Positions 31,884 to 34,320 of a stretch of DNA of 37,398 bases are shown one piece after another (the stretch's first letter is position 1; every line of letters begins with the position of its first letter). A program made the translations under genes and the position numbers. The notes beneath the pieces were generated by a model. That model was not told where the DNA came from. It worked only from the letters and a program-made list of their open reading frames with translations, and ran no database searches. Source of the stretch: an uncultured Oscillospiraceae bacterium (GTDB lineage: Bacteria > Bacillota > Clostridia > Oscillospirales > Oscillospiraceae); the NCBI GenBank assembly GCA_964509595.1, contig CAZDXX010000001.1, positions 1 through 37,398 on the forward strand. The letters are read 5' to 3'.

Positions 31884-32420
31884 TTATCTGCGATTTCGCG
31901 CTGCCCCCCGAATACGAGAAGCATAATAAGTGATTAGCTTACTGAACCCATAATCATAAATCAGGAACACCACATTACCCACCACAAAAACGAGGAGCGT
32001 ACTATGCAGAAATTCCGGCAGCATAGGGAACAGAAAAGCAGAAAATCCAAACAAAAGAACAGCCAATACTAAGTTAAAAAAAGCCAACTTCAGCAGCAGC
32101 TCCAAGGGGAGCTTACGCAGGCGTTCGACCACACTTTTGACCATGGGATACAGCCCAAAAAAGATTAGATAAAGTATTGCACAGCCTTTATCCGGAAGCA
32201 AAAGCAATCCCAACAGTCCTGCTGCAGCATAGCAGAGAAAACCGGTTGCCAATCCGCCTGAAACTACACCGGCTGCCGGAACCAGGCCAGCAATGGCAAC
32301 CATACCAATACGTCCGGATGGCATCATAGCAGCCAAGTACAGCAACAGCAAACTCAGCGCCGCCAGCACACCGCCCAAAGCAACACGAGACGCACTCTTA
32401 TTCGATCTTTGGTTCCTCAT
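31884..32420 (-). CDS. Small polytopic membrane protein, uncharacterised; paralog of 11131-11634
   Basis: 178 aa with about 5 hydrophobic segments. It shares motif blocks with the 167-aa ORF at 11131-11634 (see that feature). It is packed 4 nt after the J-domain gene and 12 nt before yicC. Confidence 0.7.
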   Translation of the reverse strand: MRNQRSNKSASRVALGGVLAALSLLLLYLAAMMPSGRIGMVAIAGLVPAAGVVSGGLATGFLCYAAAGLLGLLLLPDKGCAILYLIFFGLYPMVKSVVERLRKLPLELLLKLAFFNLVLAVLLFGFSAFLFPMLPEFLHSTLLVFVVGNVVFLIYDYGFSKLITYYASRIRGAARNRR

Positions 32421-32424
32421 GATT

Positions 32425-33030
32425 CTAGTTTCCGCAACCCCCGCACAGACAGTTCATGCACATCATCGTGGTACAACAGTCCATGGCACCCATTCCGCCA
32501 TTGGAATATCCCGCCGGACGATAAGCATTTCCACCCTGCTGCATCATGTTGTACGCCTGTCGATATTCCATGTTGTTCGGCTCCATGCGCACGGCGATTT
32601 GATAATTCTGCATAGCTTCATCCAGCCAGCCTCGGCGGTAAGCCACGCTTCCGGCCAGGAAGTACCACTCCGCCGTACGGCTGTTAGTACTGCGCAGAAG
32701 CTGTTCCGCCTGATCCACATTACCGCTGTTGATCAGATTGCGCACACGAGCAAAGGTAGGATCATTGCTTTGGCTCTGCTGCTGATATGCGCTCTGATAC
32801 CCAGAATTGTTGCTTCCCGAGGAGGTATATCCACTTCCGCCGCTGCGCATCTTGGTCACAGCATCGTAAGCCTCATTGATTTCCTTCATCTTCTCCTCCG
32901 CCAAATCGGCCAGAGGATTATTCTGGTAGTTGTCAGGATGATATTTGCGCGCCAATTCACGATAGGCACGTTTGATTTCGTCATCACTGGCATTGGGATT
33001 GACACCCAACACCTGATACGGATCACTCAT
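32425..33030 (-). CDS. J-domain protein with a TPR-like middle region and a cysteine-rich C-terminal tail
   Basis: [33 protein letters not shown] (J domain with the HPD tripeptide), a G/S/Q-rich linker, [32 protein letters not shown] (TPR-like), and the tail [18 protein letters not shown] (7 Cys in the last 18 residues). Confidence 0.8.
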
Positions 33031-33034
33031 TCAC

Positions 33035-33901
33035 TCATTCTCCTAGCTGATTTCGTTTTTTCTTCCAACGTCCATTGAACACCAGTTTCTCAATTGCGGG
33101 CAGACCTAAATACAAAATATTGGACACGATCCCATCCCAACGCTCAGTTTTTGCCAGTTCATAGGCAGCTGTCGCCAAGTTTCTGGAATGGAGCAGCGTA
33201 ATGCTTATATCCTGCAAATGCTCTTTCCCCTGACCTTCGTATCGAGCAACAATAGGATTATACGAACCAAGCCTGATGTCCTCTTCCATGTCATCCCAAG
33301 CATCGATCAGATAAACCCACCGTCCGACATGATAGAGCATCTGCTTCAAAGCACGATTCCGGGCCTCTTCCCCTGTGTCAGGCGCCGCAGCCTGGAGTAT
33401 ACGGGCAAATGTGTCCGCCGGACGATCCATCGATGTACAGCATTCCTGCTCCAAATCATGCAGCTCGCTCAAACATTTGCCCACTTCCCGATCGAATTCC
33501 GGTCGGGAAGCTGCCGCCTTTCGATAAGCCGGTTTCAAACAGAGCGATGCAATACGTGCAGGCAATCCCTTAAACAGCCCATGATCTGCCACATCGTCCC
33601 GCAGCTTTTGATAGCTCAAGATTATACTCTCGTCGGCAGCGACATCAAGGGCCGGCATCTCGTGGCACATCTTTCTCTTGCGAAACGGATGAACCGGACA
33701 GTGGCATTGGGACATTTGGCAAGGTTCTGACCCATATGCCAAAACCATGGCCAGAAACACAAAATCATAATTCAATGTGAAGCGCGCCAGAAATCCATGT
33801 CGTTTTCCTATGATGCGACACAGTCCACAATAGACAGCCTTATAATCCTCCAGCTCTCGCACTCGCAATTCCGCTGTCAACGGTCTTACATATCCGAACA
33901 A
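33035..33901 (-). CDS. Cysteine-rich hypothetical protein (resembles the DUF5685 family as I recall it)
   Basis: 288 aa. MFGYVRPLTAELRVRELEDYKAVYCGLCRIIGKRHGF... (CxxC), then CQMSQCHCPVHPFRKRKMCHE. The N-terminal MFGYV...YCGLC pattern matches my recollection of DUF5685 proteins of Clostridia. 16-nt overlap with the upstream gene. Confidence 0.6.
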   Translation of the reverse strand: MFGYVRPLTAELRVRELEDYKAVYCGLCRIIGKRHGFLARFTLNYDFVFLAMVLAYGSEPCQMSQCHCPVHPFRKRKMCHEMPALDVAADESIILSYQKLRDDVADHGLFKGLPARIASLCLKPAYRKAAASRPEFDREVGKCLSELHDLEQECCTSMDRPADTFARILQAAAPDTGEEARNRALKQMLYHVGRWVYLIDAWDDMEEDIRLGSYNPIVARYEGQGKEHLQDISITLLHSRNLATAAYELAKTERWDGIVSNILYLGLPAIEKLVFNGRWKKKRNQLGE

Positions 33902-34320
33902 GACTTCAGAACCTCCGTAATACGAAACTGAACTGATTTTTCTCTTCTTAATTGATGATCTATCAAAACATTCATTGCGATACCCACTGCAAAGCCAGCC
34001 AATCCCAGCAACAGACTGATTCCTTCTCCCAACTTCAGCAGACCTGATGCACTAAAATAAGCAGCAAACAGGAGTACCAGCGGAACAAGATACAACACAA
34101 ATGCTATGCCAAGAACCTGTCTGCTTTCGCTCTCCACTTGGACAGTATCACCCGGGCGGGCTCCCAACAGGTTCTCTGCCACGGCAGTTACTGCGGCAGC
34201 ACTTTCCGAACCGCACCCACTGCAACTGGCACAGTCATGACCGCAAGCTGATTGTCGGCGGACCAGAACTTCTGCTCTGTTCTCCCCTACCAAGCGCCTC
34301 ACTGTGGCGATTTGCGTCAT
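33886..34320 (-). CDS. RseC/MucC-family (SoxR-reducing-system RseC-like) membrane protein
   Basis: 144 aa. The N-terminal beta-domain carries C26-x3-C-x2-C-x2-C (CGHDCASCSGCG), then two TM helices (VLGIAFVLYLVPLVLLFAAYF, ISLLLGLAGFAVGIAMNVLI). ATGA overlap with cdaR. Confidence 0.7.
   Translation of the reverse strand: MTQIATVRRLVGENRAEVLVRRQSACGHDCASCSGCGSESAAAVTAVAENLLGARPGDTVQVESESRQVLGIAFVLYLVPLVLLFAAYFSASGLLKLGEGISLLLGLAGFAVGIAMNVLIDHQLRREKSVQFRITEVLKSCSDM

What the first reader, a model, noticed from the sequence alone, without database searches (positions are those of the whole stretch)
31884..34320. Cysteine-rich RseC-like / DUF5685-like / J-domain / membrane-protein module wedged between cdaA-cdaR and yicC
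Four small genes are packed with overlaps or gaps of 4-16 nt, directly after cdaA-cdaR and before yicC. Three of them have unusually dense cysteine patterns:
- 33886-34320: a two-TM RseC-family protein with CGHDCASCSGCG.
- 33035-33901: a 288-aa protein with YCGLC and CQMSQCHCPVHPFRKRKMCHE.
- 32425-33030: a J-domain protein (HPD present) with a TPR-like segment and a C-terminal tail [18 protein letters not shown].
- 31884-32420: a 5-TM protein.

Established knowledge: J domains recruit Hsp70/DnaK. RseC in E. coli is linked to the Rsx SoxR-reducing membrane redox complex. The canonical Firmicute operon is cdaA-cdaR-glmM.

Here glmM is absent at that position and this module occupies it. I infer a membrane-associated metal/Fe-S or thiol-redox module that uses a dedicated J-protein, transcriptionally coupled to c-di-AMP synthesis. 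I know of no described function for this combination.
Basis: partly seen in the sequence, partly recalled or inferred. Interest (0 to 1): 0.7.

Follow-up and report, generated by a model that had tools for sequence, protein, structure and literature searches.

The report
Prenyl-synthase-like enzyme plus cysteine-string co-chaperone
The real unit here is an uncharacterised three-gene cassette, widespread in gut Clostridia, that pairs an enzyme shaped like an isoprenoid (prenyl) synthase with a DnaK co-chaperone ending in a string of cysteines and a novel membrane protein; it may be a bacterial way of lipid-anchoring or metal-loading a chaperone adaptor.

Summary
The four tightly packed minus-strand genes are real: RseC-like, DUF5685, J/TPR/Cys-tail and a 5-6-TM protein.

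The conserved unit is three genes: DUF5685, then the J-protein, then the membrane protein. It recurs in about 160 loci and about 30 unrelated chromosomal contexts. Placement between cdaA-cdaR and yicC, and the RseC gene, are confined to one Oscillospiraceae lineage. Functional coupling to c-di-AMP is therefore not supported.

- **DUF5685 fold.** The model is confident (pLDDT 92). It matches only class I isoprenoid synthases. Invariant residues are D-x3-D, D-x3-D-x3-D and three cysteines.
- **The J partner.** It almost always ends in a cysteine string.
- **Actinobacteria.** The string is fused to DUF5685 itself and no J gene is present (4/4). None of 389 clostridial DUF5685 proteins has such a tail.
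- **Membrane partner.** One is always encoded (0 of 127 loci lack both).

Most likely, DUF5685 acts on the cysteine string at the membrane. My leading guess is Zn-assisted S-prenylation that lipid-anchors a DnaK recruiter (about 0.3). Close rivals are metal/Fe-S handling and dedicated chaperoning of a lipid enzyme. No function is published for any core component.

The parts
33035..33901 (-). DUF5685 protein (288 aa), first gene of the core cassette. Soluble, with a predicted class I isoprenoid-synthase-like fold.
   Evidence: Pfam PF18937 at 3.5e-74. AF2 pLDDT 92. The top 50 Foldseek hits are all polyprenyl/isoprenoid synthases or MoeN5. No TM segment.
33818..33832 (-). Y24-C25-G26-L27-C28 of DUF5685: two of the three invariant cysteines, lying in helix 1.
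   Evidence: C25 and C28 are 100% conserved in 135 representatives of 32-56% identity. They are also kept in Actinobacteria as HLCGLC.
33698..33700 (-). C68 of DUF5685: the third invariant cysteine, in an inserted beta-hairpin (residues 62-80).
   Evidence: 98% conserved. Hairpin seen. 134 of 135 sequences have another Cys or His at variable positions within residues 56-84.
33584..33598 (-). D102-D-V-A-D106: the first acidic motif (D-x3-D), at the C-terminal end of helix 83-106.
   Evidence: D102 and D106 are 99% conserved. Helix boundaries.
33278..33304 (-). D200-A-W-D-D204-M-E-E-D208: the second acidic motif (D-x3-D-x3-D), preceded by Y190, G193, R194 and Y197.
   Evidence: D200, D204 and D208 are 100% conserved; R194 96%; Y197 99%; N215 98%.
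32425..33030 (-). J-domain / TPR / cysteine-string protein (201 aa), second gene of the core cassette.
   Evidence: DnaJ at 3.3e-19 plus weak TPR hits. TPR residues 117-161 match consensus TPR structures. Directly follows DUF5685 in essentially every locus with room.
32857..33024 (-). J domain (aa 3-58) with HPD at aa 31-33.
   Evidence: HPD is present in 147 of 153 partner J-proteins.
32428..32481 (-). C-terminal cysteine string: D184[17 protein letters not shown]201.
   Evidence: 149 of 153 partners have at least 5 Cys in the last 25 aa, against a median of 1 Cys elsewhere. Consensus D(C)CTxxxCxNCLCGGC. The equivalent string is fused to DUF5685 in 4 of 4 Actinobacteria.
31884..32420 (-). 5-6-TM membrane protein (178 aa) of an uncatalogued family, third gene of the core cassette.
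   Evidence: No Pfam, NCBIfam or PDB match. All homologs are 'hypothetical'. Present in 56/56 distant loci and 62/72 core-lineage loci. AF2 pLDDT 84. The best fold hit is not significant.
33886..34320 (-). RseC/MucC-family protein (144 aa, 2 TM, N-terminal C26-x3-C-x2-C-x2-C36). A lineage-specific accessory gene.
   Evidence: PF04246 at 1.7e-26. Two hydrophobic segments. Present in 57/74 Oscillospiraceae-core loci and 0/55 elsewhere. Cys motif present in 60/60.
34317..36507 (-). cdaA (35569-36507) and cdaR (34317-35588): upstream neighbours in this lineage only, not part of the cassette.
   Evidence: cdaR is present in 74/74 core-lineage loci and 0/48 distant loci.
30978..31871 (-). yicC: the first gene of the conserved run yicC-remA-gmk-rpoZ-priA-def-fmt-rsmB-rlmN-PP2C-PASTA kinase-rsgA. 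A downstream neighbour in this lineage only.
   Evidence: yicC is present in 67/68 core-lineage loci and 0/49 distant loci.
36527..36555 (-). Sigma-70-like promoter match (TTGCCA-17-TATAAT, 11/12) upstream of cdaA. It is the only strong candidate start for a transcript running through the cassette.
   Evidence: Consensus match only: the number of such sites in the region is not above shuffled expectation. No convincing minus-strand terminator lies between cdaA and yicC.

Best explanation
**Shown.**
- The functional unit is a three-gene cassette: DUF5685, then a J-domain/TPR protein ending in a cysteine string, then a novel 5-6-TM protein.
- It has moved between many chromosomal sites as a block.
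- RseC, and the position between cdaA-cdaR and yicC, are lineage-specific additions.
- DUF5685 is a soluble protein with a class I isoprenoid-synthase-like fold. Its invariant residues are D-x3-D, D-x3-D-x3-D and a three-cysteine site (C-x2-C on helix 1 plus one Cys on an inserted hairpin).
- A C-terminal cysteine string always accompanies it. The string is in trans on the J-protein in Clostridia and in cis, fused to DUF5685, in Actinobacteria.
- At least one membrane protein is always encoded alongside.

**Inferred mechanism.**
1. The acidic motifs bind Mg2+ and the diphosphate of a prenyl donor.
2. The Cys3 site holds a metal, most simply Zn2+. This metal activates a thiol of the flexible C-terminal cysteine string once it enters the active site.
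3. DUF5685 then S-prenylates the string.
4. The lipidated J-protein docks at the membrane, next to the 5-6-TM partner (and RseC where present).
5. There, its HPD-containing J domain recruits DnaK to membrane-associated clients.

In Actinobacteria the same chemistry would self-anchor the enzyme.
For: **Cassette.**
- In 80 Oscillospiraceae-type genomes the order cdaA-cdaR-[RseC]-DUF5685-J-[5TM]-yicC holds.
- In five unrelated contexts the trio alone persists.
- In 80 distant metagenomic loci: J 67/68, 5TM 56/56, cdaR/RseC/yicC 0/48-49.
- Upstream neighbours fall into about 30 unrelated clusters.
- Relatives at 29% identity still have the J/Cys-tail neighbour.

**Fold.**
- pLDDT 92.
- All top-50 PDB matches are isoprenoid/polyprenyl synthases or the prenyltransferase MoeN5, with probability about 1 and TM up to 0.59.

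**Active-site-like conservation.**
- Across 135 representatives: C25, C28, C68, D46, D102, D106, E151, D159, R194, Y197, D200, D204, D208, N215.
- No conserved His, so the acidic sites suit hard metals such as Mg2+.

**Cysteine string.**
- 149/153 partners have at least 5 Cys in the last 25 aa; 147/153 keep HPD.
- Cis/trans complementarity: 4/4 Actinobacterial DUF5685 proteins have a fused string and no J gene; 0/389 clostridial ones have a tail.

**Membrane.**
- 0 of 127 loci lack both RseC and 5TM.
- A degenerate DUF5685 that has lost its motifs still sits next to the 5TM gene.

**Precedent.**
- Isoprenoid-synthase-fold enzymes that prenylate peptides exist (ComQ, PalQ, ChrPC). PalQ needs a terminal acceptor residue that inserts deeply into the active site.
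- Eukaryotic Cys-prenyltransferases use Zn2+ to activate the thiol (PMC13290415).
- From my own knowledge: eukaryotic J-proteins are membrane-targeted by Cys lipidation (farnesylated Ydj1/DNAJA, palmitoylated cysteine-string protein DNAJC5).
Against: - The link to isoprenoid synthases is by fold only. There is no Pfam hit and no hhalign signal to IspA/IspB. The equivalence of the acidic motifs to FARM/SARM or DDxxD/NSE was not established, because no model coordinates were available.
- I could not show that the Cys3 site lies near the acidic site.
- Self-lipidation of an enzyme in the Actinobacterial fusions has no obvious purpose. A cofactor-carrying or metal-binding tail explains cis fusion more naturally.
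- The Actinobacterial tails are acidic and Gly/Ser-rich, like metallothioneins, rather than hydrophobic.
- RseC family members bind Fe-S (PMC11729352), which hints at redox.
- All characterised trans-IDS-like peptide prenyltransferases act on Trp, not Cys. The Gln that defines them is absent.
- There is no experimental datum of any kind.
Confidence: 0.3

Rival explanations
1. Metal or Fe-S handling, the closest version of the first reader's idea.
- DUF5685 is a metalloenzyme whose three-Cys site holds a [4Fe-4S] cluster (with an open iron, as in IspG/IspH or aconitase) or another thiolate-bound metal.
- The cysteine string is a metallothionein-like reservoir, cluster carrier or electron/thiol relay that services this site.
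- In Clostridia the string is on a J-protein, so that DnaK drives hand-over, following the logic of HscB/HscA with IscU.
- RseC-like or Zn-ribbon membrane proteins feed electrons.
For: - Exactly three invariant Cys, with a fourth ligand at variable positions.
- String patterns CC, CxC and CxxC with G/S/D/N spacers in Actinobacteria.
- Cis fusion of a cofactor-servicing tail is common and needs no special pleading.
- The RseC-family neighbour overlaps DUF5685 by 16 nt and keeps its Cys motif in 60/60. The E. coli RseC N-domain forms an O2-sensitive Fe-S cluster via three Cys (PMC11729352).
- Another lineage has a small membrane protein with a Cys4 zinc-ribbon or rubredoxin-like knuckle in the same upstream slot.
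Against: - RseC is absent from most cassettes: 0/55 outside one lineage.
- No Fe-S family signature or ferredoxin-type CxxCxxCxxxCP spacing is present.
- The J-protein lacks the HscB C-terminal domain; there are only J-region hits, far below cut-offs.
- This reading leaves eight invariant acidic residues and the isoprenoid-synthase fold without a role, unless the enzyme does reductive prenyl-diphosphate chemistry, for which no precedent with this fold is known to me.
Confidence: 0.25
2. Dedicated chaperoning of a lipid or terpenoid enzyme.
- DUF5685 makes or modifies a small isoprenoid lipid at the membrane, with the 5-6-TM protein as substrate or product partner.
- The J/TPR protein is its private adaptor. 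It holds DUF5685 through the TPR and hands it to DnaK for activation, assembly or turnover.
- The cysteine string is merely a Zn-binding or membrane-binding module that keeps the complex at the membrane.
For: - Fold and motifs fit a small-molecule class I synthase.
- The 5TM gene stays with even a degenerate DUF5685 that has no J gene.
- Basic and hydrophobic segments precede the string in Actinobacterial fusions, and clostridial DUF5685 ends in a basic tail. Both fit membrane association.
- From my own knowledge: plant J20 targets DXS to Hsp70, and the DnaJ-like Cys-rich OR protein chaperones phytoene synthase, an isoprenoid-fold enzyme.
Against: - It does not explain why a cysteine string specifically, rather than any anchor, is the invariant companion in both phyla.
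- It does not explain why it is always at the extreme C-terminus on a flexible linker.
- No isoprenoid pathway genes are consistently linked to the cassette.
Confidence: 0.2
3. The module is functionally tied to c-di-AMP signalling. It would replace glmM as the third member of the cdaA-cdaR operon and modulate or respond to diadenylate cyclase activity.
For: - In the window and in 74/74 related Oscillospiraceae loci the cassette directly follows cdaA-cdaR, with overlapping or near-abutting reading frames.
- One strong promoter-like site lies upstream of cdaA, with no convincing terminator before yicC.
Against: - Outside that lineage the cassette is never next to cdaA/cdaR: 0/48 in the distant set, none in the five further contexts, and none in Subdoligranulum or the low-GC Firmicute contigs.
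- All of these keep DUF5685, J and the Cys tail intact.
- The genes downstream of the cassette form a long run of housekeeping genes, so local co-transcription says little about function.
Confidence: 0.04
4. There is no functional module. The gene order is inherited synteny among close relatives, and the cysteine richness is compositional chance.
For: The first 80 loci are all from one family and share the whole 10-gene order.
Against: - The trio is retained in about 30 unrelated flanking contexts and down to 29% identity.
- The cis/trans complementarity of the Cys string across phyla is 4/4 against 0/389.
- Cys are concentrated in the last 25 residues, with a median of 1 elsewhere.
Confidence: 0.02

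Closest known systems
Trans-isoprenyl-diphosphate-synthase-like peptide prenyltransferases (ComQ, PalQ, ChrPC P domain; also MoeN5)
   Same: - Same overall alpha-helical isoprenoid-synthase fold by structure comparison.
- Acidic motifs on two long helices.
- Encoded next to the polypeptide they would act on.
- PalQ needs the acceptor at a chain terminus, and the Cys string is always C-terminal.
   Different: - No detectable sequence similarity.
- Motifs are D-x3-D and D-x3-D-x3-D, not FARM/SARM.
- The Gln before SARM that defines Trp recognition is absent.
- An extra Cys3 site sits partly on an inserted hairpin.
- The presumed acceptor is a Cys string on a 200-aa co-chaperone, not a Trp in a short secreted peptide.
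- All known members act on Trp.
Eukaryotic protein farnesyl/geranylgeranyl transferases acting on CaaX or CC/CXC tails, including farnesylated DnaJ homologs (Ydj1, DNAJA1)
   Same: - Works-like analogy: a C-terminal Cys acceptor and a Zn-thiolate activation logic.
- The outcome would be membrane targeting of a J-protein (own knowledge).
   Different: - Completely different fold (alpha-alpha barrel heterodimer).
- No CaaX box.
- Five to eleven cysteines in clostridial strings and up to 18 in actinobacterial tails, rather than one or two.
- No Rce1 or ICMT-type processing enzymes detected. The 5-6-TM protein matches neither.
Cysteine-string protein (DNAJC5/CSP)
   Same: - An N-terminal J domain, followed by a linker and a dense, partly hydrophobic cysteine string (C, L, M, N, G-rich).
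- The J domain matches the DNAJC5 J domain at about 1e-10.
- CSP's string is its lipidated membrane anchor (own knowledge).
   Different: - Homology is limited to the J domain.
- The string here is at the extreme C-terminus and follows a TPR unit.
- CSP is S-palmitoylated by DHHC enzymes, which are absent here.
- This is convergent architecture at best.
HscB-HscA-IscU (a dedicated J-protein for Fe-S cluster transfer)
   Same: A specialised bacterial J-protein encoded next to, and devoted to, one Cys-ligand metal-handling partner.
   Different: - No HscB C-terminal domain.
- No IscU/NifU-type scaffold.
- The Cys-rich element is on the J-protein itself.
RseC/MucC (SoxR-reducing system / Rnf-associated membrane Fe-S protein)
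   Same: The accessory gene is a bona fide PF04246 member, with two TM helices and an N-terminal Cys motif.
   Different: - It scores far below the E. coli RseC equivalog cut-off: 20.8 against 184 bits.
- Cys spacing is C-x3-C-x2-C-x2-C, against C-x5-C-x2-C-x5-C in E. coli.
- It is not next to rnf/rsx genes here.
- Such unlinked second rseC copies have been noted in clostridia without an explanation (PMC9124969).

Membership tests
Pfam DUF5685 (PF18937) | Full-length match above the gathering score | tested here: met
   250 bits against 26.7, covering residues 1-268 of 288. The family has no assigned function.
Class I isoprenoid synthase superfamily (trans-IDS / terpene synthase fold) | All-alpha isoprenoid-synthase fold | tested here: met
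   AF2 pLDDT 92. The Foldseek top 50 are all from this superfamily, with probability about 1.0, TM 0.39-0.59 for the higher-probability hits and E down to 8.6e-4.
Class I isoprenoid synthase superfamily (trans-IDS / terpene synthase fold) | Detectable sequence or profile similarity to polyprenyl_synt or terpene synthase families | tested here: not met
   No Pfam family other than DUF5685 at E<=10 in more than one of 24 members, and none isoprenoid-related. hhalign against IspA/IspB gave probability 0.04. PDB profile hits to epi-isozizaene synthase had E about 0.6 and were off-motif.
Class I isoprenoid synthase superfamily (trans-IDS / terpene synthase fold) | Two Asp-rich metal-binding motifs (DDx2-4D + DDxxD, or DDxxD + NSE/DTE) facing the central cavity | tested here: inconclusive
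   Invariant D102-x3-D106 and D200-x3-D204-x3-D208 lie at the C-terminal ends of two long helices. This spacing resembles DDxxD and the NSE/DTE triad. Structural equivalence could not be checked without model coordinates. The motif-to-motif spacing (about 100 aa) is shorter than in IspA/IspB (127-139 aa).
Class I isoprenoid synthase superfamily (trans-IDS / terpene synthase fold) | Binds and ionises a prenyl diphosphate | not testable with these tools
   Needs an enzyme assay or ligand-bound structure.
Trans-IDS-like tryptophan prenyltransferases (ComQ/PalQ/ChrPC) | Conserved Gln immediately upstream of SARM, and a Trp-containing peptide substrate encoded nearby | tested here: not met
   Residues before D200 are Y197-L-I/V, with no Gln. 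The neighbour is a J-protein with a Cys string, not a Trp peptide. Feature definition from PMC13290415.
J-domain proteins (class C) | J domain with an HPD tripeptide | tested here: met
   PF00226 at 69 bits against 27.8. HPD at aa 31-33. HPD is present in 147/153 orthologs.
DnaJ proper (class A) | G/F region, CxxCxGxG zinc-finger domain and DnaJ C-terminal domains | tested here: not met
   TIGR02349 scored 63 bits against a cut-off of 377, over the J region only. There is no DnaJ_C or DnaJ_CXXCXGXG Pfam hit.
HscB Fe-S co-chaperone | HscB C-terminal helical domain; score above the equivalog cut-off | tested here: not met
   17-22 bits against cut-offs of 47-189, over the J region only.
RseC/MucC (PF04246) | Family HMM match, N-terminal Cys motif, two TM helices | tested here: met
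   93 bits against 24.4. C26-x3-C-x2-C-x2-C36. Two hydrophobic segments.
SoxR-reducing RseC (E. coli equivalog NF008115) | Score above the equivalog cut-off; genetic association with rsx/rnf | tested here: not met
   20.8 bits against 184. No rnf/rsx genes were found in the window.
Canonical cdaA-cdaR-glmM operon | glmM directly downstream of cdaR | tested here: not met
   cdaA and cdaR are present. RseC follows cdaR, and no phosphoglucosamine mutase appears among the window ORFs scanned.
ECF-transporter S components (for the 5-6-TM protein) | Six-helix S-component fold or family HMM | tested here: inconclusive
   The best PDB fold hit is RibU, but at E 0.5, probability 0.72 and TM 0.39. No Pfam, NCBIfam or PDB sequence match.

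The most novel reading that the evidence does not exclude
Bacteria possess a protein S-prenylation system. DUF5685 would be a new branch of isoprenoid-synthase-fold enzymes, using Mg2+/Asp motifs for the prenyl diphosphate and a Cys3-bound metal for thiol activation. It would attach isoprenoid lipids to the C-terminal cysteine string of a dedicated J-domain co-chaperone. The result would be a lipid-anchored DnaK recruiter: a prokaryotic counterpart of farnesylated DnaJ and of cysteine-string protein, built from unrelated parts. In Actinobacteria the acceptor string would be fused to the enzyme.
Probability: 0.3. Interest if true: 0.9.

Novelty: new variant of a known kind. Interest (0 to 1): 0.64.

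Why it matters
DUF5685 is a large family: 5,650 cluster representatives at 50% identity. 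It is abundant in human and animal gut Clostridia and present in Actinobacteria, and it has no known function.

This analysis adds four things:
- a fold for DUF5685;
- a probable active site;
- an obligate partner, the cysteine string;
- a defined three-gene unit.

Together these turn a 'domain of unknown function' into a directly testable hypothesis.

If the enzyme lipidates the string, it would be the first endogenous bacterial cysteine prenylation of a protein. It would also be the first isoprenoid-synthase-fold prenyltransferase acting on Cys, and it would explain how Firmicutes station DnaK at the membrane.

If the string instead carries a metal or Fe-S centre, it would be a second J-protein-assisted cofactor-delivery system alongside HscB.

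In either case it also defines a new membrane-protein family and gives a context for the 'orphan' second rseC copies of clostridia.

Tried and rejected
1. **Sequence-level link to isoprenoid synthases.** A Pfam scan of 24 diverse members at E<=10 found only DUF5685. hhalign against E. coli IspA/IspB gave probability 0.04. PDB profile hits (Mdm2, epi-isozizaene synthase) were insignificant or off-motif. A regex search of all fetched loci for polyprenyl synthases found none.
2. **Identity of the 5-6-TM protein.** No Pfam, NCBIfam or PDB sequence match, and no significant fold match. I considered ICMT-like and CPBP/Rce1-like roles. I rejected them for lack of any family hit and of conserved His/Glu motifs.
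3. **Natural DUF5685-J fusions.** The two long representatives, P0194 and P0159, are an insertion variant and a probable frameshift, not fusions.
4. **Anti-phage defence.** No PADLOC hit. The 'phage' records carrying DUF5685 are unverified fecal contigs with bacterial housekeeping-type neighbours.
5. **First metagenome scan.** The scan with the very diverse alignment A2 failed for lack of a conserved stretch. It was repeated with A4.
6. **c-di-AMP coupling.** Rejected as a general property by the census.
7. **Spatial relation of the Cys3 and Asp sites.** Not checked, because model coordinates are not exposed.
8. **Literature.** There is no functional paper on DUF5685, and two full-text searches returned no paper on bacterial cysteine-string J-proteins.

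Full report
**Observation.**
The window carries, on the minus strand:
- cdaA (36507..35569)
- cdaR (35588..34317)
- an RseC-family gene (34320..33886)
- a DUF5685 gene (33901..33035)
- a J-domain/TPR gene (33030..32425)
- a hydrophobic 178-aa gene (32420..31884)
- then yicC, remA, gmk, rpoZ and priA

Junctions are a 4-nt overlap, a 16-nt overlap, a 4-nt gap, a 4-nt gap and a 12-nt gap. Independent public gene calls give the same products, except that yicC is called 7 codons shorter.

Pfam and NCBIfam confirm the family assignments. They find nothing for the 178-aa protein, even at E<=10. The rest of the window continues the conserved housekeeping run def-fmt-rsmB-rlmN-PP2C-PASTA kinase-rsgA, then SipL and SpoIVA. 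The host is therefore a spore-forming Clostridium-class organism. No glmM is present. A strong sigma-70-like match lies upstream of cdaA, and there is no convincing terminator before yicC. The scan as a whole is not above chance.

**What the conserved unit is.**
A genome scan seeded with DUF5685 returned 80 loci, essentially all Oscillospiraceae-type, at 48-74% identity. All share the order cdaA-cdaR-[RseC]-DUF5685-J-[5TM]-yicC-remA-gmk-rpoZ-priA. That alone could be inherited synteny, so I sought distant members.

- Five look-ups of 32-45%-identity relatives gave five different flanking contexts: MntP/MBOAT, RF3/RadC, UvrA/SIS, a pyridine-nucleotide oxidoreductase, and YjbR/Macro. Each contains only the trio DUF5685, DnaJ (about 200 aa) and an approximately 180-aa protein with no Pfam match. 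The third gene is homologous to the window's membrane protein.
- A metagenome scan seeded from the distant set added 80 loci. With profile HMMs, J is present in 67 of 68 loci with room; the one miss is at a contig edge. The 5TM gene is present in 56 of 56. cdaR, RseC and yicC are present in 0 of 48-49.
- Upstream same-strand neighbours fall into about 30 unrelated clusters.
- Relatives at 29% identity in low-GC Firmicute contigs still have the J/Cys-tail gene immediately downstream.

The unit is therefore a three-gene cassette that begins at DUF5685. RseC, and the position between cdaA-cdaR and yicC, belong to one lineage: RseC is in 57 of 74 loci there and 0 of 55 elsewhere.

Membrane partners are complementary. 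RseC plus 5TM occurs in 45 loci, 5TM only in 72, RseC only in 10, and neither in 0 of 127.

**DUF5685.**
The family is large: 5,650 representatives at 50% clustering have E<=1e-3.

- 134 of 135 sequences have a further Cys or His at variable positions near C68.
- AlphaFold2 gives a confident model (pLDDT 92, pTM 0.90). It is all-alpha plus one hairpin (residues 62-80) that carries C68.
- All 50 best PDB matches are polyprenyl/isoprenyl diphosphate synthases or the prenyltransferase MoeN5, with probability about 1, TM up to 0.59 and best E of 8.6e-4.
- The two acidic motifs sit at the C-terminal ends of two long helices. Their i/i+4 and i/i+4/i+8 spacing is the spacing of the DDxxD and NSE/DTE metal ligands of class I enzymes. 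That last comparison is my inference.
- Sequence-level tests found no link. Membership of the superfamily therefore rests on fold only. I could not verify that the motifs superpose on FARM/SARM, or that the Cys3 site adjoins them.

**The J-protein.**
It has a J domain with HPD and a low-complexity linker. It also has one or two TPR units (residues 117-161 match consensus TPRs) and a C-terminal string, [18 protein letters not shown].

- Among 153 partner J-proteins, 147 keep HPD.
- 149 have at least 5 Cys in the last 25 residues, against a median of one Cys elsewhere.
- 137 fit a core C-x(3-5)-C-x-[ND]-x(1-2)-C.
- It is not DnaJ, DjlA, CbpA or HscB by NCBIfam cut-offs.

**A cis/trans link.**
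tblastn against annotated plasmid records found remote DUF5685 proteins (27-28% identity) in Nocardia sp., Nocardia farcinica, Tsukamurella and Nonomuraea.

- All four keep the C-x2-C, the third Cys and the second acidic motif (DA.xD.xxD). Three of the four also keep the D-x3-D motif; Tsukamurella has DRVAE.
- All four end in a fused cysteine string, with 7-18 Cys in the last 60 residues, after a basic/hydrophobic linker.
- They have no J, 5TM or RseC gene nearby.
- Conversely, none of 389 clostridial-type DUF5685 proteins has such a tail.

The invariant companion of the DUF5685 domain is thus a C-terminal cysteine string on a flexible tether. It is supplied either by the enzyme itself or by the J-protein.

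**Other components.**
- The 5-6-TM protein has conserved intramembrane polar residues: K78, K95, E99, E107, K111, N116, N149, Y155 and D156. It has a reasonable model (pLDDT 84) but no significant structural relative. The best is the ECF S-component RibU at E 0.5.
- A degenerate DUF5685 that has lost its Cys and Asp motifs is still followed by this gene, without a J gene. This suggests a physical DUF5685-membrane protein pairing.
- The RseC-like protein keeps a four-Cys motif of the CxxxCxxCxx(x)C type in 60 of 60 homologs.
- E. coli RseC's N-domain forms an oxygen-sensitive Fe-S cluster on three Cys (PMC11729352). Second rseC copies unlinked to rnf have been noted in clostridia (PMC9124969).
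- In one low-GC lineage the same upstream slot holds a different small membrane protein with a Cys4 zinc-ribbon-like knuckle.

**Mechanism.**
Shown:
- a mobile three-gene cassette;
- an isoprenoid-synthase-like fold with enzyme-like conservation;
- a three-Cys site;
- an obligate C-terminal cysteine string, in cis or in trans;
- obligate membrane partner(s);
- an intact Hsp70-stimulating HPD.

Inferred, at about 0.3: DUF5685 binds a prenyl diphosphate through Mg2+ on the acidic motifs. It uses a Cys3-bound metal (Zn2+) to activate a string thiol. It then S-prenylates the string, so that the J-protein becomes a lipid-anchored DnaK recruiter beside the membrane partner.

Precedents:
- Isoprenoid-fold peptide prenyltransferases exist, though all known ones act on Trp.
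- PalQ needs a terminal acceptor.
- Zn-thiolate activation is used by eukaryotic Cys-prenyltransferases (PMC13290415).
- From my own knowledge, eukaryotic J-proteins are membrane-anchored by Cys lipidation.

The main weakness is that self-lipidation in the Actinobacterial fusions has no obvious purpose.

Rivals:
- **Metal/Fe-S rival (about 0.25).** The string is a metallothionein-like carrier or relay for a [4Fe-4S] or other centre on the three Cys, with DnaK-driven hand-over and RseC as electron donor. It explains the fusions and RseC better, but leaves the fold and eight invariant acidic residues unexplained.
- **Chaperoning rival (about 0.2).** The J-protein is a private chaperone adaptor for a membrane-lipid enzyme, and the string is a Zn or membrane module.
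- **c-di-AMP coupling (about 0.04)** and **chance synteny (about 0.02)** are effectively excluded by the census.

**Comparison and novelty.**
No component of the core cassette has a published function. RefSeq labels them 'DUF5685 family protein', 'J domain-containing protein' and hypothetical.

The system resembles known kinds in its parts. These are trans-IDS-like prenyltransferases, lipidated or cysteine-string J-proteins, and HscB-type dedicated co-chaperones. It fails the defining tests of each family. I therefore rate it a new variant of a known kind, with a 0.3 chance of being the first bacterial protein S-prenylation system.

**Verdict.**
- The redefined cassette is a well-founded and experimentally tractable lead.

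Noticed in passing
L168:6001-7008 (Nocardia sp. PE-7 plasmid), L169:6001-7179 (Nonomuraea), L175:4001-5074 (N. farcinica), L176:4001-5002 (Tsukamurella): Actinobacterial DUF5685 proteins carry a fused C-terminal cysteine string, with 7-18 Cys in the last 60 aa, after a basic/hydrophobic linker. They stand alone, without J, 5TM or RseC genes. The tails are acidic and Gly/Ser-rich, like metallothioneins, unlike the more hydrophobic clostridial strings.
   Followed up: yes
L173:5001-6418: A degenerate DUF5685 paralog has lost the YCGLC cysteines and the DAxDD motif. It is followed directly by a 5TM homolog, with no J gene. It may be a pseudo-enzyme that still pairs with the membrane protein.
   Followed up: partly
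L171:4577-4987 and L172:401-796: In a low-GC Firmicute lineage the slot upstream of DUF5685 holds a small protein of about 135 aa with an N-terminal hydrophobic hairpin and a C-terminal Cys4 zinc-ribbon-like motif (CPxC...CxxCPKC). This is the slot RseC occupies in the window. The 5TM gene is absent there.
   Followed up: partly
MT835652.1, MT835850.1, MT836096.1 (L171-L173): These records are deposited as 'UNVERIFIED: Bacteriophage sp.' from human faeces. They carry bacterial-looking genes next to the cassette, with no phage features in the stretches read. They look like bacterial contigs.
   Followed up: no
L170 (Pusillibacter faecalis pMM59_01, 157565-168431): The whole housekeeping run ispD-ispF-...-cdaA-cdaR-RseC-DUF5685-J-yicC-remA-gmk-rpoZ-priA lies on a 504-kb linear record typed as a conjugative plasmid. 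It is either a chromid or an assembly/labelling issue. This lineage lacks the 5TM gene. Similarly, the 11.8-Mb Nonomuraea 'plasmid I' is clearly a chromosome.
   Followed up: no
window 16430-19443 (minus strand): SpoIVA (510 aa) and a SipL/SPOCS-domain protein (505 aa) lie just beyond the rsgA end of the housekeeping run. The host is therefore an endospore former. A tRNA lies at 16233-16305 (+), and a truncated tRNA lies at the window start (1-53, minus strand).
   Followed up: no
window 36640-37359 (minus strand): A 239-aa ORF upstream of cdaA has no Pfam match and an odd composition. It may be a shadow of a plus-strand gene that runs off the window end, rather than a real gene.
   Followed up: no
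window 30978-31871: Public gene calls start yicC 7 codons downstream of the first ATG (290 aa against 297 aa). That would widen the 5TM-yicC gap from 12 to 33 nt.
   Followed up: no
window 33035-33901 (DUF5685 N-terminus): The extreme N-terminus, M-F-G-Y-x-R-P, is conserved across the family, including Met1 (92%) and Gly3 (96%). This suggests the N-terminal segment forms part of, or caps, the active site.
   Followed up: no
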